Below the pieces are notes generated by a model. The model was not told the origin of the DNA. It saw only the letters and a list, made by a program, of their open reading frames with translations, and searched no databases. The position numbers were made by a program, and so were the translations under genes. A stretch of DNA of 29,640 nt from a virus, in IMG/VR virus record IMGVR_UViG_2922401287_000005, positions 1 through 29,640 of that record; one strand, written 5' to 3'. Every line of letters begins with the position of its first letter. The stretch's first letter is position 1. Below, in pieces: positions 427-8,106 of the stretch.

Positions 427-461
427 TTGATCCCCTCCCAAAAGTGTGTATTAATACACAC
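427..461 (+). promoter_or_regulatory. Putative hicAB promoter with a palindromic operator
   Basis: TTGATC (427-432) and TATTAAT (449-455) lie next to and within a perfect 18-bp palindrome GTGTGTATTAATACACAC (444-461). A partial second copy GTGTGTATTAAT is at 412-423. RHH-type HicB proteins typically autorepress through such sites. Confidence 0.7.
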
Positions 462-650
462 ACGAGGTCAGCAGATGTCATCAGGGTCCTGAAGGACGAT
501 GGGTGGAAGCCGGTGGCCCAGAAGGGCAGCCACATCCAGTTCAAGCACCCGACAAAGAGCGGCCGCGTGACGGTACCGCATCCGAAGCGTGACATCCCTA
601 TCGGCACTTTGAGGAGCATCGAAAAGCAAGCCGACCTGAAACTAAGATGA
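462..650 (+). CDS. hicA: HicA-family mRNA interferase toxin (start codon ACG at 462, or GTG at 444)
   Basis: (T)RSADVIRVLKDDGWKPVAQKGSHIQFKHPTKSGRVTVPHPKRDIPIGTLRSIEKQA, with the GSH catalytic His motif; directly upstream of hicB. Confidence 0.9.
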   Translation, partial: TRSADVIRVLKDDGWKPVAQKGSHIQFKHPTKSGRVTVPHPKRDIPIGTLRSIEKQADLKLR

Positions 651-698
651 GATCGCAGACGGGGCATCGCGCCCTGATCCCAAGGAGGGGAGAATAAC

Positions 699-1091
699 AT
701 GCGACACTACATTGCACTGATCCATAAGGATGCAGACAGCGACTACGGCGTGTCATTTCCGGATCTTCCTGGCGTTGTAACTGCTGGAACGAATTTAGAT
801 GATGCGCGCGCCATGGCAACGGAAGCTCTGGCTCTTCATCTAGAGGGTATGGTTGAAGACGGCGAAGCCGTCCCAGAACCCTCCTCCCTTGAGGAGATCA
901 TGGCAGATGCCGAGAACAGAGACGGCGTTGCCGTTCTAATTCCTGTACCAGCGACGGAAGTGAAGACGGTACGCGTCAACGTCACTCTTCCCGCCGATGT
1001 CTTGAACGAGATTGACCACTACGCTGAACAGCATGGTTTCACGCGTTCTGGTTTTCTCGTTCAAGCCGCAAAGAAAGCGATCGCGGCGTAG
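699..1091 (+). CDS. hicB: HicB-family antitoxin with C-terminal ribbon-helix-helix domain
   Basis: YIALIHKD..SDYGVSFPDLPGVVTAG..LDDARAMATEAL..HLEG N-domain; VRVNVTLP...RSGFL RHH; strong SD (AAGGAGG) upstream. Confidence 0.95.
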   Translation: MRHYIALIHKDADSDYGVSFPDLPGVVTAGTNLDDARAMATEALALHLEGMVEDGEAVPEPSSLEEIMADAENRDGVAVLIPVPATEVKTVRVNVTLPADVLNEIDHYAEQHGFTRSGFLVQAAKKAIAA

Positions 1092-1128: not shown

Positions 1129-1444
1129 ATGCACCTCTTCCTCCGCCCCACCCGTCATAGCCGGCGACAAGCTTGAGAACGATTTCGCGGTGATCCACGA
1201 GGGCCGGAAGGTTCGCCGGATCAGGTTGGCTACTGAGCGCGCCAGCCTCCAGCCCGGATGGGACTGGCACATCACCGTCCCGCTTCCGGTCCACCCGTGG
1301 TGCAACGGCACGGCAACCGATCTGGAAGGCGCCAAGGCGGCGTTCCGGGAAGCGTGGGAGCGGTTCTTCGCGACCCTCTCGCCTTCCGACATCGAATACT
1401 GGCACCACGATCAGGACGCCGCCGCGCGGCGCTTCGGCCGGTAA
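1129..1444 (+). pseudogene. Small hypothetical gene with a probable +1 frameshift near 1150
   Basis: ATG 1129 reads MHLFLRPT and stops soon after. Removing one C from CCCCACCCGTC joins it to VIAGDKLENDFAVIHEGRKV...WDWHI...GTATDLEGAKAAFREAW in the 1190..1444 frame. Confidence 0.6.
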
Positions 1445-1829
1445 GATTCGCGGTCCCCATCCCGGATACCAAATCGCCCTATGCACCCTGCCTGCCGACC
1501 CGGGGAACCGCCGTTCCCGCGCGCGACGAATGGCTGCACGAGGTCAAGCATGACGGCTACCGGCTGATCGTCCAGCGCGCCGGCAAGGTCGTGCGCCTGT
1601 TCACCCGCAACGGCCACGACTGGACCCCGCGCTACCCGCTGATCGTCGAGGCGGCGCTGCGCCACCGCGCGCAGCGGTTTGTGCTGGACGGCGAGGCGGT
1701 CCTGCTGGGCGTCGATGGCCGCTCTGACTTCGACGGCCTGCAGAGCTGGCTCCGCAAATTCGGACAGTAGCTTGAGTGGATTTTCTGCCTGACAGCGGCG
1801 AGGATTCTTGCCGCGAATCAGGAGCGAAG

Positions 1830-2135
1830 ATGACGAAGAAGAGCCGCCGGATGCATTCTCCGGCATTCAAGGCGAAGGTTGCTTTGGCTGCGGTCAAAGG
1901 CGACAAGACGCTGGCGGAGCTGGCGCAACTGTTTGATGTTCATCCGAACCAGATCACGATCTGGAAAAACCAGCTCCTGGAAGGCGCCGCCGGCGTGTTT
2001 GGGCATGACAAGGCGTCGGCCGAGACGCCGGTCGATTTGAAGGCGTTACATGCCAAGATCGGCGAGCTGGCGTTGGAAAACGATTTTTTGTCCGGCGCGC
2101 TCACCAAGGCGGGCCTGCTGAGCGCAAAGCGATGA
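1830..2135 (+). CDS. IS3 transposase OrfA (HTH)
   Basis: MTKKSRRMHSPAFKAKVALAAVKGDKTLAELAQLFDVHPNQITIWK; SD AGGAG before ATG 1830. Confidence 0.93.
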   Translation: MTKKSRRMHSPAFKAKVALAAVKGDKTLAELAQLFDVHPNQITIWKNQLLEGAAGVFGHDKASAETPVDLKALHAKIGELALENDFLSGALTKAGLLSAKR

Positions 2136-2959
2136 TCGACCGCGGTCATGATCTTTCTATCGTGCGCCAGGCGAAGGTCCTGAAGCTGGCTCGCAGCACG
2201 GTCTACTATGAACCTCGGCCAGTTTCGGCCGAGGACCTTGCCTTGATGCGTCGGCTCGATGAGCTGCATCTCGATTATCCCTTCGCGGGAGCGCGTATGC
2301 AGCGATCGTTGCTGCGGCGGGAGGGCGTATACGCCGGTCGCCGCCACATCGCGACGCTGATGAAGCGCATGGGGATCGAGGCGGTCTATCGTCGCCCGAA
2401 CACGAGTAAGCCGGCACCGGGTCACAAGATCTACCCGTACCTGTTGCGCGGATTGAAGATCGAGCGGCCCGACCAGGCGTGGGCAATGGACATCACCTAC
2501 ATTCCGATGCGGCGTGGCTTCGTCTATCTCGCGGCGGTCGTCGATGTGTTCAGCCGACGGGTCCTGGCCCATCGCGTCTCGATCACAATGGAGGCGGCCT
2601 TCTGCGTCGAAGCGGTCCAGGAGGCGTTGGCGAAGCACGGCAGGCCCGAGATTTTCAACACGGACCAGGGCAGCCAGTTCACCAGCCTCGAGTTCACCGA
2701 TGTGCTGCTGGACGCGAAGATCGCCATCAGCATGGACGGCAAGGGCGCCTGGCGCGACAACGTGTTTGTCGAGCGGCTCTGGCGCACGGTCAAATACGAA
2801 GAAGTTTATCTCCGCGCCTACGACAGCGTGTCCGAGGCGCGAGCGTCAATTGCCAAGTATCTGGCCTTCTACAATCAGGGACGCCCTCACTCGAGCCTTG
2901 ACGGGCGCACGCCCGACGAGGCTTACTTCGGCACGCAAGCTATGGTGATGGCCGCATGA
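2132..2959 (+). CDS. IS3 transposase OrfB (DDE integrase core)
   Basis: WAMDITY, FNTDQGSQF, DNVFVERLWRTVKYE, YNQGRPHSSL; ATGA overlap with orfA, in the -1 frame. Confidence 0.95.
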   Translation: MIDRGHDLSIVRQAKVLKLARSTVYYEPRPVSAEDLALMRRLDELHLDYPFAGARMQRSLLRREGVYAGRRHIATLMKRMGIEAVYRRPNTSKPAPGHKIYPYLLRGLKIERPDQAWAMDITYIPMRRGFVYLAAVVDVFSRRVLAHRVSITMEAAFCVEAVQEALAKHGRPEIFNTDQGSQFTSLEFTDVLLDAKIAISMDGKGAWRDNVFVERLWRTVKYEEVYLRAYDSVSEARASIAKYLAFYNQGRPHSSLDGRTPDEAYFGTQAMVMAA

Positions 2960-3452
2960 CCGTCGCCGACGATTTTGTCGTCGCTCTGGTCGGGCTACGC
3001 CCTCCCGACGCAACGACAAAATCGTAAGGCCCCGCGTTCAGCATAACCCGGCAGGAATCCACTTAAATCCCGCGGGGCGCTGTCCAAACAACCGGCGCCA
3101 GCTCTCTGCATTCCCGCCAGCACGACGACGAGGTCCAGCTCTACGCCTTCGACATGATCGAGCTCGACGGCGAGGATCTCCGCAAGCTGCCGCTGTCGAT
3201 GCGAAAGACCAATCTGGAACGGATGCTGGCGCGCCGGGTCGACGGCATCCATTTGGCCCCGTTCGAGACCGGTGAGATCGGGCCCGAGCTGTTCCGCCAC
3301 GCCTGCCTGATGGGCCTCGAAGGCATCGTCTCCAAGCGCGTGGACCGCCCCTACCGCGCCGGCCCCTCGAAGGACTGGGTCAAGGTGAAGAACCGCGAGC
3401 ACCCGGCCATGTACCGCGTCAGGGACGCGCGATCGCGCAGGCCCTGAAACGC

Positions 3453-3494
3453 AAAAAAGGCCCCCGAGCGCCCTGTGAGGGGCGCCCGGGGGCC
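3453..3494 (-). terminator. Rho-independent terminator ending the late/lysis operon
   Basis: Long GC stem (GGCCCCCGAGCGCCC / GGGCGCCCGGGGGCC) followed by T6 on the minus strand, between convergent genes. Confidence 0.85.
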
Positions 3495-3510
3495 AATTGA
3501 TGTTCCAGTC

Positions 3511-4164
3511 TTAGAGCGCGTTCAGCGCGACCTTGTCGTAGGCCGCGTAGACCTTCTTCAGCCACGCGCGCGCGTAGCCCTGCAACACCTCTGACTGCGA
3601 CTTGTCGGCGATGTAGGCCTCGAAGCCCACGCCGAGCCGGTCGATCGTGTCGTTCGCCATCGTGTTGAGCTGCGGGATCACGATGGCGTCCTTGGCGGAC
3701 GCCGGCAGGCCGGCGAACTTGGTGCCGTTGGTGTGGTTGAGCAGCACGTGATGGGTGGCGCCCTCCACCGCCTTGGCGGTCGCGTCGATCTCGTCGAACG
3801 ACGCCTGGCTGGAGCCGATGACGTGGACGACCGAGATCCGCAGCCGGCCTTCCTTGACGCCGTCGAGGAAGCCGATCTCCGACAGGGTCGCCAGCGTGGT
3901 CGAGAGCAGCGTCGCGCGGATGTCGATCAGCGTGACCTGCGCCTCGCGCAGCTTGTCGAACACCTTCATCTGGTCGTCGGACTGGGTGAGGTCCACGACC
4001 TCGACGTCCGGGTGGAAGCGCTTGAACACGCCGTTCGGCGCCTCGGTGTCGAACGCGCGAACCGAGATGCCGTGGGCGTGGAAGTAGTCGCGCAGAGTGC
4101 GGGAGACGGTCGTCTTGCCGACGCCGCCCTTGTCGGCGCCGACGATAATGACGTGGGGGCCCAT
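3511..4164 (-). CDS. ParA/MinD-superfamily (deviant Walker A) P-loop ATPase, 217 aa
   Basis: IIVGADKGGVGKTT (KGGxGKT), RAFDTE (A'), VTLID (Walker B); SD AAAGG upstream. Confidence 0.85.
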   Translation of the reverse strand: MGPHVIIVGADKGGVGKTTVSRTLRDYFHAHGISVRAFDTEAPNGVFKRFHPDVEVVDLTQSDDQMKVFDKLREAQVTLIDIRATLLSTTLATLSEIGFLDGVKEGRLRISVVHVIGSSQASFDEIDATAKAVEGATHHVLLNHTNGTKFAGLPASAKDAIVIPQLNTMANDTIDRLGVGFEAYIADKSQSEVLQGYARAWLKKVYAAYDKVALNAL

Positions 4165-4194
4165 GTAGGGTGCCTTTCTTTCTGTGATGGAGGA

Positions 4195-4698
4195 CTATTT
4201 CGCGACCACGCTCGACGGCAGGCCGCGGAGGCCGTCGTTCTGCCGTTCGAGCCGGTCGATCAGTTTCTGCATCTCGTCGTAGCGACGATTGACGAGAAGC
4301 ATTTCGAGGCCTTCGAGCCGCTCCACCCGTTTCTCGTCGGTGGCGGCTCGATAGTTGATCTCCTCTCGCGGAACGAGGTGTTCCTTGAGGGTCTTGATGT
4401 CGGTCTGGATCGGGGAGAGCGCTTGACTGCCGACGAACGCCAGCGTGGTGGTGATGAGACCCGCCGCCGAGATCAAGATGCCCCACGGCGTGCGATTGCG
4501 TTCGCCGAGCTGGGTGCCGAGGGACGACAGGGCCGAGCGAAACTCGGTCCCCAGCGCCGACCCCATCTTCTCGATCTTGCCGTCCAGCCCAAGGATGCGG
4601 TCATTGATCTGGCTGATGTCAGCATCAATGCCGCCCACCTTGACCTGCAGTGCCCTGACATCGGTCGCGAGCGTCGCTCCGTCAACTGCCGTCGTCAT
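4195..4698 (-). CDS. Coiled-coil single-transmembrane protein (167 aa), possibly holin-like
   Basis: ATG 4698 overlaps the o-spanin stop (TAATG). Heptad-rich N- and C-parts flank WGILISAAGLITTTLAFVG. Confidence 0.65.
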   Translation of the reverse strand: MTTAVDGATLATDVRALQVKVGGIDADISQINDRILGLDGKIEKMGSALGTEFRSALSSLGTQLGERNRTPWGILISAAGLITTTLAFVGSQALSPIQTDIKTLKEHLVPREEINYRAATDEKRVERLEGLEMLLVNRRYDEMQKLIDRLERQNDGLRGLPSSVVAK

Positions 4699-4985
4699 TA
4701 CTCGCTCCCCGCTGCGCGAGCGCGCACGTTGTCGTACCACTCACCGCTCTCCTTCAGCCGGCCATTCGCCTCGTCCAGCGCATCGCGCGTCTGTGCGAGG
4801 CGTGCCTTGCCGCTATCGTTTAGCTTTAAAGAAGGGACCGAGACGGGGGACATGAAGCCGGGACGCCCGGGCAGGTCGCGGGACTGGGCCGCAAACTGCG
4901 GGGAGGTGTGCCCGCATGCCGCGCAAATCGTCGCAAGTGAGAGCATCACCATTGACCGGAGGAGGAAGGTGAGCGGCCGCCGCAT
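4698..4985 (-). CDS. Putative o-spanin (Rz1-like lipoprotein), overlapped type
   Basis: MRRPLTFLLRSMVMLSLATICAA-CGH lipobox followed by a Pro-rich linker. Starts inside the i-spanin in another frame and runs past its stop. Confidence 0.75.
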   Translation of the reverse strand: MRRPLTFLLRSMVMLSLATICAACGHTSPQFAAQSRDLPGRPGFMSPVSVPSLKLNDSGKARLAQTRDALDEANGRLKESGEWYDNVRARAAGSE

Positions 4986-5337
4986 CAGCTTCGGCCTTCG
5001 CAGCACGCTGCTCGAGCTCCTTGACATAGTCTGCAGTCCTTTCCTTTTCATCGGCAGCGCGGCTCTCGAGCCCCGCAGCCTTGAGCTTGGCTTCGGCAGC
5101 GGCTTTCTGCGCGTTTTCCTTGTCGGCATTCGCCGCGTCGATCTGCGACTGCAGCGCGGCGGTCTGGCACTCGGCTTCGGCAGCCGAGCGGCCCATTTCG
5201 TAGAGCTTGAAGCCGGAAGCCCCGAGGGCTGCGGCGATCAGGCCGGCGACGATCGCGCCGGCCGCAAAGCCCGAGATCTTCAGTCCGAAGAGGCCCGCAA
5301 CACGGGCGAGGAAGGTGGCGACTGCGCCGGTAAGCAT
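4813..5337 (-). CDS. Putative i-spanin (Rz-like)
   Basis: N-terminal TM segment (FAAGAIVAGLIAAALGASGF), long Ala/Glu/Lys coiled coil, C-terminal Cys residues; follows the endolysin with a TGATG overlap. Confidence 0.75.
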   Translation of the reverse strand: MLTGAVATFLARVAGLFGLKISGFAAGAIVAGLIAAALGASGFKLYEMGRSAAEAECQTAALQSQIDAANADKENAQKAAAEAKLKAAGLESRAADEKERTADYVKELEQRAAKAEADAAAAHLPPPVNGDALTCDDLRGMRAHLPAVCGPVPRPARASRLHVPRLGPFFKAKR

Positions 5338-6551
5338 CAGGCCCTCCCCGCGCGGTAATCATCGACATGGCGTCGCTCGATCTTGTCGGCGACGAACCAG
5401 ACGGCCAGGCCAGCGGCCGCCAGCACGACCAGCACCACGACCGCCGCGCCGATGACGACCCAGCCGGTCTCGGAAATCCCGAGCCCGCCGACCGCCTCCT
5501 TGGCGCTGGAGATCGCGGTCGCCTTCTCGGTGACAAGGCCGAGCGCGCCGGTGACACCCAGACCGGTGCCGCCGCCGAACAGCCGCCCGCCCCACCCCTT
5601 CACCTTGTCGGTGAAGGAGATCGTGTCGGACCCCTGCTCGCGCAGATCGGAGGCCGAGGCGTTCGCCCGCTCCTCGGACACCTGCGGCGGCGTCGCCTTG
5701 GCGAGCGCCGTCAGGAAGTCGTCGTCGATGGTCGGCGTCAGCGGCAGGCCGTTCTTGTTGCGGAAGGCCAGGATCGCGTCCTCGGTCTTGCCGTGCGGCG
5801 TCAGGTTGCCGTCGACGGCGCCGACCTGCGGATAACCAAGCTCCCGGAGCTTCTGCTGCACATGGGCCACCGTGTCCGGATCGACGTGATCCGGCACGGA
5901 GGCCAGCGCGGCGAAGGCCTGCGGATGCGCCGTCTCGAGCCCCCTCTCGAACAGCGCAGCTTCCGCGTCGCGGCGGTCGCGCAGACCGCGCGAATCCGGC
6001 CACAGCCGCTTCATGGAGCGGATCAGCCCCGGGATGCGTTCCAGATTGCCGGACTTCACGCATGAGCGGATGTCCCGCATCTCAGCAAAGCGCGGGCCCG
6101 CGTTGGAGAACGAGGCGCCGCGGTTGAACACGACAGACAGGAGAACGCCCTTGCAGTCGGGCGCGAGCTCGTCGACGCCCGGACAGCCATGGCGGAGCAT
6201 CGCCATGTAGCGCGGCACGTCGTGATTGGAGAACACGTCCTCGGCGACATCCCACGGGATGTCGACCACGGCGCGGAGCTTCTGGGCAAGTGCCCGGGCA
6301 GGAACACCGGTGACGCCGCAGGTCTTGGCGAGCGCCTTGACCATGGCGTCGGGGATCTTGCCGGTCCAGTCGGCGATGAACTGAGCGCGGCTCGTCTGTC
6401 CGACATCGTATCCGATGCCGATGGTAACGCCGGACTGCTCGCCCGGCCACTCGGGATGACGATAGCGGTGCTCATAGACCTCGCGGCTCGAGACTTCCGA
6501 CTCGACAATAAGGTCGAATGCGGCCTGCGAAATGGCGTGCAAATCGAACAT
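5337..6551 (-). CDS. Endolysin: lysozyme (pesticin-C/T4-like) + PG-binding domain + C-terminal TM region (404 aa)
   Basis: ESE...SGVTIGIGYDVG and GLRDRRDAEAALF; VAHVQQKLRELGY...VDG...TEDAILAFRNKNGL; hydrophobic WVVIGAAVVVLVVLAAAGLAVWFVA. SD GGAGA before ATG 6551. Confidence 0.85.
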   Translation of the reverse strand: MFDLHAISQAAFDLIVESEVSSREVYEHRYRHPEWPGEQSGVTIGIGYDVGQTSRAQFIADWTGKIPDAMVKALAKTCGVTGVPARALAQKLRAVVDIPWDVAEDVFSNHDVPRYMAMLRHGCPGVDELAPDCKGVLLSVVFNRGASFSNAGPRFAEMRDIRSCVKSGNLERIPGLIRSMKRLWPDSRGLRDRRDAEAALFERGLETAHPQAFAALASVPDHVDPDTVAHVQQKLRELGYPQVGAVDGNLTPHGKTEDAILAFRNKNGLPLTPTIDDDFLTALAKATPPQVSEERANASASDLREQGSDTISFTDKVKGWGGRLFGGGTGLGVTGALGLVTEKATAISSAKEAVGGLGISETGWVVIGAAVVVLVVLAAAGLAVWFVADKIERRHVDDYRAGRA

Positions 6552-6583
6552 GGTTTCTCCGGATTTAAGATTGTGGGAGCCAG

Positions 6584-6614
6584 AAAAGCGAAGGCCGCCC
6601 GAAGGCGGCCCCGC
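6584..6614 (-). terminator. Terminator-like hairpin with a cUUCGg loop upstream of the lysis genes
   Basis: Minus strand GGCCGCC-TTCG-GGCGGCC followed by TTCGCTTTT. Confidence 0.65.
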
Positions 6615-6640
6615 TGGATCGTGGTTTGTGGTGAAGGCCG

Positions 6641-7069
6641 TCAGGCCGGGATGGTGATGCCGAGCGCGGTCGCGATCGCGCTCATGCGATCGGCGCCGAG
6701 GACCGTGACCAGCGTGCTCCAGCCGGCCTTGAAGCGGTCGTTGGTGGTATCCATCGGGTCGCGCTGCGCGAGCAGCGAGAACCAGAGCAGCGCAGCCTGC
6801 GGGTTGGACGAGATCGCAGTCTGGATCGCCGCGATGTCGGCAGCCGTGAGCTGCGCCAGCAGGTCCTGCGGCGCAACGAGGTAGTTCGACGCGAGCTTCG
6901 CCTGCTGGTTGGCGTATTCGGCGTTGAAGGCGTCCTCGGTCGGGATCGTCTGGACGGTGTCCATCCAGACGATGTTGGCGAAGCCGTCGCCCGTGGTGTA
7001 CCACTGGGCGAACGGCGTGAGCTGCTGCAGCGTGGCGGCGAGGATTTTCTGAGGAGAGATGTTCGTCAT
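6641..7069 (-). CDS. Small phage protein after the tail fibre (tail fibre assembly/chaperone-like)
   Basis: 142 aa, ATGA-coupled to the fibre gene. Called from position; no firm motif. Confidence 0.55.
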   Translation of the reverse strand: MTNISPQKILAATLQQLTPFAQWYTTGDGFANIVWMDTVQTIPTEDAFNAEYANQQAKLASNYLVAPQDLLAQLTAADIAAIQTAISSNPQAALLWFSLLAQRDPMDTTNDRFKAGWSTLVTVLGADRMSAIATALGITIPA

Positions 7070-8106
7070 TGCATCACCACTCCCCAGATTTGGCCGTTAC
7101 CCGAGCCGGTGTTTGTCGTGGTGAAGCCGGCTGTCGCGCTCATCCACGCGATCTCTGCGTGGTGCAGCACGAGCTCGGACAGGTCCGTCGCAATCTGCTG
7201 CGAGATCGTCGTGAACATTTGGCCGATCGTGCCGCTAAACGCTCCGTTCTGGCCCCACGTCTCGAGACCGCTGTTGTTCGATCCATCAATCCACAGCTCA
7301 AGCCATGACGTGGAAGCGGTCGTCCCGTTGTCGGCGAGGTCGATCGTCTGGCTGAACCCGAGCTGCACGGCGGTGCCGGCCCAGGTGATGAACTGGACGC
7401 GCTCCGCGCCGCCCCCCATCTCGGTGAATGAGGCCGTCGTCGTGGTGTACTGGCCGCCGGTGAGCTTGAGCAGCGGTCGCGGCCGCTGATTGAACCACGA
7501 CGCGCAGAAGCGCTGGGTTGGCGTGTCAAAAATGGTATTGCCGTTGAGGAGAAAGACCATTCCGACCAAGGAGCGGCTCTCGTCAGCGACTTTGACCTCG
7601 ATACCCAGATTTCCCGGCGCGGCGCTCGAGGTGTGCCCACTCTGCGAGAACTCCAGCGCGATCGCGCCAGTCCCGTTGACGAAGGCGTAGATGTAATAGC
7701 ATCCCTGCGTCAGGCCGGAGGGGACAATGGCAAGCACCCCATTGGCCGGGATCGTGTAGAGCTTGCCGTTGATTTGCAGCGCGTTGCCCCGGTAGGGGAT
7801 GAGCTGAACAGTGAACGTATTCGGAGCGATCAGCCGACCGCAGTGAACCGGCTGGGGCCCGACATTGATGTTGAGCAGTGCAGAACCGTCGACCGCCGGC
7901 AGCTTGCCGGAATTGTCGAGCTGAACGACGTTGCCCGGCTGGGCGCCGACATCCTCGGCCGCCGCGGTGCCCAGCGTGGGCAGTCCGGCCAGCGACGAAT
8001 ACTGCGTCGGCGCGGTGGTCACAGGAACGACAATCTGCAGCGCGGGGCTGTCCTGACTGACGACGACCGCGGGATCGGCAGTGACGACAATCGGAGCTGG
8101 GCTCAT
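7066..8106 (-). CDS. Tail fibre / receptor-binding protein 2
   Basis: LGTAAAEDVGAQPGNVVQLDNSGKLPAVDGS fibre shaft motif, YYIYAF...SLVGMV...SWFN block, and a beta-rich C-terminal domain. Confidence 0.75.
   Translation of the reverse strand: MSPAPIVVTADPAVVVSQDSPALQIVVPVTTAPTQYSSLAGLPTLGTAAAEDVGAQPGNVVQLDNSGKLPAVDGSALLNINVGPQPVHCGRLIAPNTFTVQLIPYRGNALQINGKLYTIPANGVLAIVPSGLTQGCYYIYAFVNGTGAIALEFSQSGHTSSAAPGNLGIEVKVADESRSLVGMVFLLNGNTIFDTPTQRFCASWFNQRPRPLLKLTGGQYTTTTASFTEMGGGAERVQFITWAGTAVQLGFSQTIDLADNGTTASTSWLELWIDGSNNSGLETWGQNGAFSGTIGQMFTTISQQIATDLSELVLHHAEIAWMSATAGFTTTNTGSGNGQIWGVVMQ

What the first reader, a model, noticed from the sequence alone, without database searches (positions are those of the whole stretch)
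3511..4698. ParA/MinD-type ATPase and a membrane coiled-coil partner at the end of the lysis operon
Seen: after the endolysin and spanins come a translationally coupled single-TM coiled-coil gene (TAATG overlap) and, 30 bp later, a deviant-Walker-A ATPase (KGGVGKTT). Both sit upstream of the operon terminator, and no parB or centromere array is nearby. Known: ParA/MinD-family ATPases position cellular cargo, and lysis cassettes normally have none. From recall (unverified), the ATPase resembles an uncharacterised Bradyrhizobium chromosomal ATPase beginning 'VVGADKGGVGKTT'. Inference: a late-expressed module that positions or times lysis in polarly growing Rhizobiales, or a captured mimic that interferes with the host ATPase. 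This is the best candidate here for an undescribed system.
Basis: partly seen in the sequence, partly recalled or inferred. Interest (0 to 1): 0.75.

Follow-up and report, generated by a model that had tools for sequence, protein, structure and literature searches.

The report
Orphan ParA-like ATPase in prophage late operon
A small ATP-driven switch protein of the ParA/MinD type sits at the end of a Bradyrhizobium prophage's lysis genes, but its relatives are scattered through many unrelated phages (mostly next to head and packaging genes) and match a conserved host gene pair, so it is an undescribed travelling accessory gene, not a lysis part.

Summary
A 217-aa gene with a complete deviant Walker A motif (3511-4164, minus strand) lies 30 nt after a 167-aa coiled-coil gene with one membrane helix (4195-4698). 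That gene overlaps the spanin stop codon (TAATG). A strong terminator follows, and there is no parB or repeat array.

The lysis reading is not supported. The ATPase belongs to a compact, uncatalogued branch of the ParA/MinD superfamily. In 64 distinct phage neighbourhoods it lies within five genes of head or packaging genes in 46 and of lysis genes in 11, before or after them. The 11 is about what a rough estimate gives for chance.

The coiled-coil protein follows spanins with or without the ATPase, so it belongs to the lysis cassette.

A host counterpart exists. 69 of 101 sampled genomes of the host family carry an orthologue (47% identical to the window protein in the one pair aligned). In most loci examined a degenerate paralogue follows it directly. 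The window gene is an old phage lineage, not a recent capture.

No close relative is on 72,556 plasmids, which argues against partition.

Most likely it is a late-expressed, partner-less ATPase switch that works through host factors. The mechanism is inferred.

The parts
3459..3494 (-). Intrinsic terminator hairpin (15 pairs, 14 G-C) followed by TTTTTTGCGT. It closes the transcription unit 17 nt after the ATPase stop.
   Evidence: sequence
3511..4164 (-). 217-aa orphan ParA/MinD-class ATPase. Deviant Walker A K12-G-G-V-G-K17-T-T, switch I D39, Walker B/switch II D81-I-R-A-T (position 85 varies: G in most relatives, T here). GC3 is 0.97 against about 0.80 for neighbouring genes.
4165..4194 (-). 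30-nt intergenic spacer with a GAAAGG Shine-Dalgarno sequence. The simple sigma-70 scan found no promoter-like site in 3300-7200. The equivalent spacers in the three syntenic relatives are 36-43 nt.
4195..4698 (-). 167-aa bitopic membrane protein. N-terminal coiled-coil (about residues 1-70), one TM helix (about 71-93), C-terminal coiled-coil. A lysis-cassette accessory with no known family. Its start overlaps the spanin stop (TAATG).
4698..5129 (-). o-spanin (Rz1-like) reading frame. It has a lipoprotein-type signal with Cys (…L-A-T-I-C-A-A-C-G), and the true start is probably an internal Met. It overlaps the i-spanin gene.
   Evidence: phrog_456, E 5e-5
4813..5337 (-). i-spanin (Rz-like), with an N-terminal TM helix and a coiled-coil.
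   Evidence: phrog_739, E 2.5e-3
5337..6557 (-). 406-aa endolysin: lysozyme/pesticin-like N-terminus, PG_binding_1 domain and a C-terminal TM helix (about residues 358-394).
6591..6612 (-). Terminator-like hairpin between the tail-fibre-region gene and the endolysin. It may mark the 5' limit of the unit endolysin, spanins, coiled-coil gene, ATPase.

Best explanation
The 217-aa protein is a catalytically complete ParA/MinD-class ATPase, an ATP-dependent dimerising switch. It belongs to a compact, uncatalogued subfamily shared by the chromosomes of Bradyrhizobium-group bacteria and many unrelated phages of that group.

In this prophage it is co-transcribed with the late lysis genes, as the last gene before a strong terminator. 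It is a self-contained single-gene accessory, not a lysis component. In other phages the same gene is slotted, in the same orientation, between TerL and portal, before TerL, after the major capsid protein, before the tail sheath, or on either side of a lysis cassette.

No phage-encoded partner travels with it. The hosts carry a conserved orthologue (ATPase1), in most loci examined followed directly by a degenerate paralogue (ATPase2). The most likely mode of action is therefore that the phage protein engages the host factors that ATPase1 normally works with, co-opting or disturbing that host system during virion production.

The 167-aa coiled-coil membrane protein is a separate accessory of the lysis cassette and tracks with spanins. 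Its position resembles the single-pass coiled-coil proteins that follow spanins in other phages (DUF1515 proteins, Mu releasin).

Shown: gene reality, intact motifs, fold, distribution, contexts, the host counterpart, and absence from plasmids. Inferred: late expression, action through host partners, and any role of the coiled-coil protein.
For: Motifs and fold:
- K12, G13-G16, K17, D39 and D81 are invariant in 29 relatives.
- The AlphaFold model has pLDDT 90.8.
- VIA-align gives Z 15.0 to TP228 ParF, 14.6 to MipZ and 14.6 to MinD over 182-196 residues.

A separate subfamily:
- Pfam, NCBIfam and PHROGs match only residues 3-74 and stay below their cut-offs.
- The profile finds only 1463 of 1.84 billion representatives at E <= 0.001, and 171 at E <= 1e-30.

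Contexts:
- TerS, TerL(phrog_15), [ATPase], gpW-size gene, portal.
- TerS-like, [ATPase], TerL(phrog_38), portal.
- Scaffold, MCP(phrog_212), [ATPase].
- MCP(phrog_29), one gene, [ATPase].
- [ATPase], head protease.
- [ATPase], tail sheath.
- [ATPase], endolysin.
- The upstream gene is on the same strand in 67 of 70 viral loci.
- Head/packaging genes lie within five genes in 46 of 64 distinct neighbourhoods, lysis genes in 11 of 64.

Host counterpart:
- Tandem ATPase1 + ATPase2 occurs in about 75 chromosomal loci with differing flanks: SMC, Rsm22, LemA, M48 in Bradyrhizobium/Nitrobacter/Afipia and HemY/MFS in Pseudolabrys.
- ATPase1 is found in 69 of 101 sampled genomes of the family, 11 of 201 of the order and 0 of 250 others of the class.
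- ATPase2 has S-P-R-P-x-V-G-K-T in place of the K-G-G signature.

Phage and host exchange: viral contigs L011-L014 carry a copy 76-78% identical to chromosomal ATPase1 and nested in its clade.

Co-transcription: the spacers are 30-43 nt with a Shine-Dalgarno sequence in all four syntenic loci, the simple sigma-70 scan finds no promoter-like site, and a terminator follows.

The coiled-coil protein is independent of the ATPase.
Against: - No expression, localisation or interaction data exist. Action through host partners is inferred from homology and from the lack of a travelling phage partner.
- The host ATPase1/ATPase2 pair itself has no known function, and literature searches found nothing.
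- In four loci with the same gene order the ATPase does sit directly after the coiled-coil gene, and about a fifth of contexts are next to lysis genes, so a lysis-related role in this lineage is not excluded.
- The strong head/packaging bias could instead mean that the protein acts on the phage's own assembly machinery.
- The high GC3 (0.97) and the terminal position with its own terminator would also fit a moron expressed in the lysogen.
- My gene calls in the loci are a crude GC3-based caller, and the locus sample is the best 80 of 126 viral hits, so it is phylogenetically non-independent.
Confidence: 0.45

Rival explanations
1. One reading: the ATPase and the coiled-coil membrane protein form a late module that positions or times lysis (for example polar lysis in Rhizobiales). 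The membrane protein recruits the ATPase to the envelope.
For: - The order endolysin, spanins, coiled-coil gene, ATPase, with 30-43-nt spacers, recurs in the window, L162, L163 and L167, although the ATPases are only 51-53% identical in L162/L163.
- Both genes also lie in the lysis region of L031.
- ppBeUSDA76-1, L027 and L031 have the ATPase directly before the endolysin.
- The N-terminal coiled-coil of the membrane protein could face the cytoplasm.
Against: - Only 11 of 64 distinct phage neighbourhoods have a lysis gene within five genes. My rough estimate for chance is about 25% for a 50-gene phage. 46 of 64 have head/packaging genes.
- The order relative to lysis genes is not fixed, and three different endolysin types are involved.
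- The coiled-coil family (7 clusters) occurs without the ATPase: L168 has a signal-peptide gene next, and L169 has a CHAP-domain gene next.
- The host orthologue sits in a housekeeping context with no lysis genes.
Confidence: 0.1
2. Virion-assembly or packaging helper: the ATPase organises the phage's own head assembly or DNA packaging in space. This would be analogous to VirC1 recruiting the relaxosome to the T4SS (from my own knowledge, not checked here). Its place after the lysis genes in this prophage would then be incidental.
For: - 46 of 64 distinct contexts are within five genes of TerS, TerL, portal, protease, scaffold or major capsid genes. These belong to at least five different PHROG types.
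- The gene is nearly always co-oriented with late genes.
- Some versions carry a basic N-terminal helix and a Pro/Glu-rich linker that could act as a tether.
Against: - The packaging and head proteins next to it are unrelated to each other, so there is no common phage-encoded client.
- In this window, and in L162, L163 and L167, the gene is about 20 kb or more from the head genes.
- The host chromosomal orthologue cannot serve phage assembly.
Confidence: 0.15
3. A moron expressed from the resident prophage. It would be a lysogenic-conversion, superinfection-exclusion or defence factor, or a dominant interferer with the host ATPase1/2 system, that benefits the lysogen and not the lytic cycle.
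For: - It is the terminal gene next to the prophage end and has its own strong terminator.
- GC3 is 0.97 against about 0.80 for neighbouring genes. ATPase GC3 exceeds that of its flanks in 62 of 74 viral loci.
- In the closest relatives, L001 and L003, the gene lies among accessory-looking genes. One upstream gene has a signal peptide and a C-terminal aromatic residue, which looks like an outer-membrane protein.
Against: - The simple sigma-70 scan finds no promoter-like site, and the spacer to the upstream late gene is only 30 nt with a Shine-Dalgarno sequence.
- There is no PADLOC hit.
- In most phages the gene is embedded in the middle of head operons.
- It is also present in the 121-kb phage BDU-MI-1, beside TerL.
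Confidence: 0.12
4. A partition ATPase (type Ib ParA/ParF-like) that segregates an extrachromosomal form of the phage. The HTH protein encoded downstream in related phages would act as the centromere-binding partner.
For: - The best structural match is TP228 ParF, with Z 15.0.
- In L001, L003, L162 and L163 a 410-460-aa protein with an N-terminal HTH_30 domain follows the ATPase.
Against: - That downstream protein is phrog_704 (exonuclease/phosphoesterase-like, E about 1e-118), not ParB, ParG or RHH. It is absent from the window and from L167.
- No iterated repeats flank the gene.
- No homologue above 25% identity exists on 72,556 plasmids.
- The prophage is on a 9.9-Mb contig.
- The gene lies inside late structural operons.
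Confidence: 0.05

Closest known systems
ParF of plasmid TP228 and other small type Ib ParA ATPases (PDB 5u1g, 4e09; Synechocystis ParA 3cwq)
   Same: About 200-220 aa, deviant Walker A with a signature lysine, the same alpha/beta fold (Z 15.0, rmsd 3.2 A over 187 residues), and no N-terminal DNA-binding domain.
   Different: Only 15-18% identity. There is no ParG/ParB gene and no centromere repeats. The family has no close relative on plasmids and lies inside phage late operons or as a chromosomal tandem pair.
MipZ of Caulobacter (PDB 2xit/2xj4)
   Same: Best profile-to-sequence hit among solved structures (E 3e-4, N-terminal 54 residues) and Z 14.6. One database record labels a Bradyrhizobium homologue 'MipZ'. 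Like this family, it is an alphaproteobacterial orphan ParA-like protein.
   Different: The Pfam MipZ score is 16.7 bits against a cut-off of 20.7, over residues 4-51 only. MipZ is about 280 aa. From my own knowledge, MipZ works with ParB and FtsZ. Nothing here links this family to either.
TraL of IncP-type conjugative plasmids (NCBIfam PRK13886)
   Same: Nearest named cluster by shape in the ESM Atlas (TM 0.86 over 214 residues). It is a small ParA-like ATPase, and to my knowledge it has no defined partner or function.
   Different: The NCBIfam score is 19 bits against a cut-off of 360. This gene is not in a transfer operon, and no close homologue is on plasmids.
Orphan cargo-positioning ParA/MinD ATPases (MinD, FlhG, McdA, PpfA, PomZ)
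   Same: A stand-alone deviant-Walker-A ATPase with no parB. Structural Z is 12.8-14.6 to MinD, FlhG and McdA.
   Different: No adaptor gene (of the MinE, McdB or TlpT kind) travels with it. No C-terminal amphipathic membrane helix was identified. None of these is known from phage late operons.
Plasmid-prophage partition ATPases (P1 ParA, N15 SopA)
   Same: A phage-borne member of the ParA superfamily.
   Different: From my own knowledge, those are larger type Ia proteins with an adjacent parB/sopB and centromere, in the maintenance region of an episomal prophage. Here the gene is a 217-aa orphan in the late operon of a prophage on a 9.9-Mb contig (NCBIfam SopA 16 bits against a cut-off of 725).
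For the 167-aa gene: Mu gp25 'releasin' (DUF2730) and the DUF1515 proteins of rhizobial phages
   Same: The same slot, directly after the spanin genes. All are small single-pass membrane proteins with a coiled-coil. The window cassette has a membrane-anchored endolysin and no recognisable holin.
   Different: No detectable homology: hhalign probability is 2% to Mu gp25 and 1% to the ppBeUSDA76-1 DUF1515 protein. The TM helix is central here, N-terminal in gp25 and C-terminal in DUF1515.

Membership tests
ParA/MinD (SIMIBI-class, deviant Walker A) superfamily | Deviant Walker A x-K-G-G-x-x-K-[ST] with a signature lysine and a P-loop lysine | tested here: met
   A-D-K12-G-G-V-G-K17-T-T. K12, G13, G14, G16 and K17 are invariant in 29 relatives.
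ParA/MinD (SIMIBI-class, deviant Walker A) superfamily | Switch I Asp and Walker B/switch II Asp (MinD D-S-P-A-G type) | tested here: met
   D39 and D81 (L-I-D-I-R-A-T in the window; the last position is G in most relatives) are invariant.
ParA/MinD (SIMIBI-class, deviant Walker A) superfamily | Fold of the family | tested here: met
   The model has pLDDT 90.8. Z is 13-15 to ParF, MipZ, MinD, SegA, Soj-type ParA and FlhG over 180-197 residues.
ParA/MinD (SIMIBI-class, deviant Walker A) superfamily | Score above the curated cut-off of a family model (Pfam CbiA, ParA, AAA_31, MipZ) | tested here: not met
   CbiA 23.4 bits against 25.4, ParA 18.8 against 27.1, MipZ 16.7 against 20.7. All matches cover only residues 4-51. 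This means a divergent subfamily, since motifs and fold are met.
Type I plasmid/chromosome partition system (ParABS) | An adjacent centromere-binding protein gene (ParB, ParG or RHH) | tested here: not met
   The neighbours are the coiled-coil membrane protein and a terminator. The downstream gene in relatives is phrog_704, exonuclease-like.
Type I plasmid/chromosome partition system (ParABS) | An array of centromere repeats near the operon | tested here: not met
   Only scattered two- or three-copy chance repeats of 12-23 nt occur in 3400-4800.
Type I plasmid/chromosome partition system (ParABS) | Occurrence on autonomously replicating elements | tested here: not met
   The best plasmid hit among 72,556 records is 24% identical and cyanobacterial.
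MinD | C-terminal amphipathic membrane-targeting helix and MinC/MinE partners | tested here: inconclusive
   The C-terminal helix 192-211 packs in the model, and no separate tail follows it. No minC or minE is nearby. Membrane binding cannot be tested with these tools.
IncP TraL (NCBIfam PRK13886) | Score above the subfamily cut-off and a place in a Tra1 transfer operon | tested here: not met
   19.1 bits against a cut-off of 360. There are no transfer genes in the window.
PHROG phrog_164 ParA-like partition protein | A full-length match to the family profile | tested here: not met
   E 7.3e-5, over residues 3-41 only.
Spanin (for the 167-aa gene) | i-spanin: N-terminal TM helix plus periplasmic coiled-coil. 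o-spanin: lipoprotein. | tested here: not met
   The TM helix is central (71-93) with coiled-coil on both sides. A separate i-/o-spanin pair is already present. There is no PHROG hit.
Releasin / DUF2730 (Mu gp25) (for the 167-aa gene) | Sequence membership in DUF2730 | tested here: not met
   hhalign probability is 2.3% to Mu gp25. Pfam DUF2730 reaches only E 0.021, in 3 of 8 members. Only the position after the spanins is shared.
Known anti-phage defence proteins (PADLOC-DB) | A match to any defence-system model | tested here: not met
   No hit at E <= 0.01 for the ATPase, the coiled-coil protein or the host ATPase1.

The most novel reading that the evidence does not exclude
Many unrelated phages of Bradyrhizobium-group bacteria carry their own copy of a lineage-restricted host ParA-like ATPase (ATPase1). 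The host protein normally works with a degenerate paralogue (ATPase2). The phage copies are minimal versions: they lack the two insertions and the C-terminal tail of the host protein. They would act late in infection by pairing with, or competing for, the host's ATPase2 or its cargo. That would make this a previously unknown case of phages taking over a bacterial intracellular positioning system. It would also give a handle on the unknown function of the host pair.
Probability: 0.25. Interest if true: 0.7.

Novelty: new variant of a known kind. Interest (0 to 1): 0.42.

Why it matters
ParA/MinD ATPases in phages are known almost only as partition proteins of plasmid prophages. This is different. 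It is a compact, uncatalogued subfamily: no Pfam, NCBIfam or PHROG model reaches threshold, and two sequenced Bradyrhizobium phages annotate it as 'hypothetical'. It is embedded, without a partner gene, in the late operons of over a hundred phage contigs.

The same subfamily appears as a conserved tandem pair of an active and a degenerate ATPase in the chromosomes of the soybean symbiont group and its relatives. If the phage copy works through the host pair's partners, that would be a new kind of host takeover. It would also be an entry point to an unstudied cell-organisation system in Bradyrhizobium, Nitrobacter and Afipia.

For annotation, the practical result is negative. The gene should not be called a lysis, partition or MipZ protein. 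The 167-aa neighbour should be recorded as a lysis-cassette accessory in its own right.

Tried and rejected
- **Complex prediction.** I tried an ATPase dimer with the N-terminal 75 residues of the coiled-coil protein.
- **Coiled-coil protein versus Mu gp25 releasin and versus the DUF1515 protein of ppBeUSDA76-1.** hhalign found no homology.
- **Pfam at E <= 1 on all 8 coiled-coil family members.** Only generic coiled-coil noise came back.
- **ESM Atlas look-alikes for the coiled-coil protein.** Only unnamed clusters were returned.
- **PADLOC.** No hits.
- **Rfam and tRNA scans of the region.** Nothing found, so no tRNA attachment site is evident.
- **Sigma-70 promoter scan of 3300-7200.** No site was found. 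The scan is crude and may miss Bradyrhizobium promoters.
- **Literature.** Searches for ppBeUSDA76-1, bll2492, and ParA-like with terminase found no paper. The two Bradyrhizobium phage papers I read do not mention the gene.
- **Earlier notes of this scan, searched by sequence.** Nothing.
- **Whole host chromosome.** It could not be searched, because the 'own genome' held is only the 105-kb provirus record. Presence of the ATPase1/2 pair in this particular host is therefore inferred from other Bradyrhizobium genomes.
- **Direction of transfer (phage to host or host to phage).** Not resolved. The only available root is the long-branch paralogue ATPase2.
- **First tblastn census with the window's own lysis proteins.** It undercounts lysis neighbours because lysis genes diverge fast. 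I partly corrected this by clustering neighbours and annotating the clusters.
Full report
**1. What is in the sequence**

All genes of the finding lie on the minus strand. Read 5' to 3' on that strand, the layout is:

- A terminator-like hairpin at 6612..6591.
- A 406-aa endolysin (6557-5337). It has a lysozyme/pesticin-like N-terminus, a PG_binding_1 domain and a C-terminal hydrophobic helix.
- Overlapping i- and o-spanin frames (5337-4813 and 5129-4698; phrog_739 and phrog_456).
- A 167-aa gene whose ATG overlaps the spanin stop (TAATG at 4700-4696).
- A 30-nt spacer with a GAAAGG ribosome-binding site.
- The 217-aa ATPase (4164-3511).
- A 15-pair hairpin with a T-run, 17 nt after the ATPase stop (3494..3459).

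No repeat array, parB-like gene, tRNA or Rfam element is nearby.

Beyond the terminator lies a convergent ATP-dependent DNA ligase gene. It is split by an IS3-family element with 26-nt terminal inverted repeats at 1742-1767 and 3080-3105.

**2. The ATPase is a real, intact but divergent ParA/MinD-class protein**

- It has the full deviant Walker A (K12-G-G-V-G-K17-T-T), the switch I Asp (D39) and the Walker B/switch II Asp (D81). These residues are invariant in 29 relatives that share 52-76% identity with it.
- AlphaFold2 gives mean pLDDT 90.8.
- Exhaustive structural alignment gives Z 15.0 to TP228 ParF, 14.6 to MipZ and 14.6 to MinD. These are ties, so no subfamily stands out. Foldseek TM-scores are only 0.5-0.6.
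- Pfam, NCBIfam and PHROGs recognise only the first 40-70 residues and stay below their cut-offs.
- A profile of the family finds only 1463 of 1.84 billion cluster representatives at E <= 0.001, and 171 at E <= 1e-30. The family is therefore sharply set apart from the huge ParA/MinD superfamily.
- The nearest named cluster by shape in the ESM Atlas is IncP TraL (TM 0.86).

**3. Where the family lives**

At 90% clustering there are 4281 hits. I fetched 80 viral and 80 genomic loci. I called genes with a GC3-based caller, clustered the neighbours and annotated the large clusters.

(a) Chromosomes.

- In about 75 loci the gene (ATPase1, about 235-250 aa) is followed directly by a distant paralogue (ATPase2, about 222-247 aa, 21-24% identical).
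- The flanks are housekeeping genes and they differ between genera. In Bradyrhizobium, Nitrobacter and Afipia the order is SMC, Rsm22-type methyltransferase, LemA, M48 peptidase, pair, then phosphoribosyltransferase and anthranilate synthase on the other strand. In Pseudolabrys the pair lies between HemY and an MFS transporter gene. The pair is the conserved unit.
- ATPase2 keeps G-K-T but has S-P-R-P where the K-G-G signature should be.
- ATPase1 was found in 69 of 101 sampled genomes of the family, usually once, at 56-94% identity. It was found in 11 of 201 genomes of the order and in none of 250 other genomes of the class.

(b) Phages. The gene is inserted, nearly always co-oriented (upstream gene on the same strand in 67 of 70 loci), at many different places:

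- TerS, TerL(phrog_15), [ATPase], 69-aa gene, portal(phrog_21).
- TerS-like, [ATPase], TerL(phrog_38), portal(phrog_145). The cultured 121-kb phage BDU-MI-1 belongs here.
- Scaffold, MCP(phrog_212), [ATPase].
- MCP(phrog_29), one gene, [ATPase].
- [ATPase], head protease.
- [ATPase], two genes, TerL(phrog_9).
- [ATPase], tail sheath.
- Several positions around lysis cassettes.

(c) Plasmids. None of 72,556 records has a homologue above 24% identity.

**4. Is it linked to lysis?**

Among 64 distinct neighbourhood signatures, 46 have a head or packaging gene within five genes and 11 have a recognisable lysis gene. None has both.

For a phage of about 50 genes, I estimate roughly that a ±5-gene window catches the lysis cassette by chance about a quarter of the time. 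On that estimate the lysis association is not above expectation, while the head/packaging association is about twofold enriched. Lineages are not independent, and lysis genes are under-recognised.

Where lysis genes are near, the arrangement varies:

- The ATPase is directly before the endolysin in ppBeUSDA76-1, L027 and L031.
- It is after the spanins in the window, L162, L163 and L167.
- It is two to five genes away in L001, L023, L062, L068 and L081.
- The endolysins are of three different types.

**5. The 167-aa protein**

- Its family is small: 7 clusters, all 159-167 aa.
- It has a central hydrophobic helix (about residues 71-93) between two coiled-coil halves.
- It matches no family.
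- In every context recovered it follows spanin-like genes. Four times the ATPase comes next (window, L162, L163, L167). Once a signal-peptide gene comes next, in a cassette with a PF00959 lysozyme and a two-TM DUF7940 protein (L168). Once a CHAP-domain gene comes next (L169). In L031 it follows the spanins while the ATPase lies upstream of the endolysin.

It therefore belongs to the lysis cassette, not to the ATPase.

The same slot is filled by a coiled-coil protein with a C-terminal TM helix (DUF1515) in ppBeUSDA76-1, and by the releasin gp25 in Mu. No homology to either is detectable.

This cassette has a membrane-anchored endolysin and no recognisable holin. A regulatory or release role in lysis is a reasonable guess, but it is untested.

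**6. Relation to the host copy**

In both trees (FastTree on 99 rows; IQ-TREE short search on 57 rows, LG+C20):

- ATPase2 is a separate long branch.
- Chromosomal ATPase1 forms one tight clade (support 99-100).
- The phage copies form several deeper clades around it.

The window protein groups (support 100) with prophage copies L001-L003 (62-70% identity). It is 47% identical to chromosomal ATPase1 and 21% identical to ATPase2. It is therefore not a recent capture.

One exchange is clear. Viral contigs L011-L014 carry a copy 76-78% identical to ATPase1 and nested inside its clade.

Rooted on ATPase2, ATPase1 nests among the phage lineages. That fits either an old domestication of a phage gene or faster evolution in phages, and the root is too uncertain to decide.

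Compared with the phage proteins, ATPase1 has two insertions and a C-terminal tail. Some phage versions instead carry a basic N-terminal helix and a Pro/Glu-rich linker.

**7. Most likely function**

Established: this is a functional-looking ATP switch, co-oriented with late genes and tightly spaced behind one (30-43-nt spacers in four loci with the same gene order). It has no travelling phage partner, is not on plasmids, and is confined to phages and chromosomes of one bacterial group.

Inferred: it is made late and acts through host factors shared with ATPase1, by co-option or by interference. I give this 0.45.

Rivals:

- It acts on the phage's own head or packaging machinery (0.15).
- It is a moron expressed in the lysogen. 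The terminal position, its own terminator and GC3 of 0.97 against 0.80 for the flanks speak for this. The 30-nt spacer and the lack of a promoter-like site speak against it (0.12).
- Partition (0.05).

No paper on the family was found.

**8. Verdict**

The ParA-type identity and the host homologue hold. The lysis role and the partnership with the coiled-coil protein do not.
- The gene is a member of an undescribed, phage-and-host-shared branch of the ParA/MinD superfamily, in an unusual setting. I class it as a new variant of a known kind, of moderate interest.

Noticed in passing
window 1258-3447 (+), IS at 1742-3105: An ATP-dependent DNA ligase gene (Pfam DNA_ligase_A_M in two pieces, 1258-1770 and 3154-3447) is split by an IS3-family element. 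The element has orfA at 1776-2135, orfB at 2132-2959, and 26-nt terminal inverted repeats at 1742-1767 and 3080-3105. Ligase homologues also lie a few kb beyond the ATPase or lysis region in prophage loci L001 and L031. The ligase is therefore either shared prophage cargo or marks a common integration neighbourhood.
   Followed up: partly
loci L083-L160, e.g. L136:6001-6702 (ATPase1) and the next gene downstream (ATPase2): Chromosomes of Bradyrhizobium, Nitrobacter, Afipia, Pseudolabrys and relatives carry a conserved tandem pair. The first gene is an active ParA-like ATPase. The second is a degenerate paralogue whose Walker A reads S-P-R-P-x-V-G-K-T, with no signature lysine. The flanks are housekeeping genes that differ between genera. 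No function for the pair was found in the literature searched.
   Followed up: partly
loci L011-L014 (IMG/VR contigs), ATPase at 6001-6705: These viral contigs carry an ATPase 76-78% identical to the chromosomal ATPase1 of Bradyrhizobium-group genomes and nested inside its clade. This is an apparent recent host-to-phage capture, distinct from the older phage lineages.
   Followed up: partly
L165:5650-6681 (Bradyrhizobium phage BDU-MI-1) and proteins P0133, P0134, P0146: Some phage versions are 308-347 aa. They have a roughly 30-residue basic N-terminal helix and a long Pro/Glu-rich linker ahead of the ATPase domain, which could be a tether or targeting peptide. The window version lacks it.
   Followed up: no
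L001:6724-7971, L003:6606-7982, L162:9308-10537, L163:9312-10544: In four related prophages the ATPase is followed by a 410-460-aa protein. It has an N-terminal HTH_30-like motif and a phrog_704 'DNA repair exonuclease'-like body (E about 1e-118). The gene is absent from the window and from L167.
   Followed up: partly
window 6591-6612 (-): A terminator-like hairpin (9 pairs, 7 G-C) sits in the 83-nt gap between the 142-aa tail-region gene and the endolysin start. In the syntenic locus L162 the equivalent gap is only 20 nt.
   Followed up: no
window 5337-6557 (-): The endolysin has a strongly hydrophobic C-terminal segment (about residues 358-394). The cassette has no recognisable multi-TM holin. 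The related cassette in L168 does have a two-TM DUF7940 protein before a PF00959 lysozyme.
   Followed up: partly
L001:4667-5716 and L003:4501-5724: In the closest prophage relatives, a gene one or two genes upstream of the ATPase encodes a 350-400-aa protein with a signal/TM region and a C-terminal aromatic residue. It looks like an outer-membrane beta-barrel moron and has no Pfam hit.
   Followed up: no
window 444-1091 (+): A HicA-like (444-650) and HicB-like (699-1091) toxin-antitoxin pair lies at the record's start, beyond the ligase.
   Followed up: no
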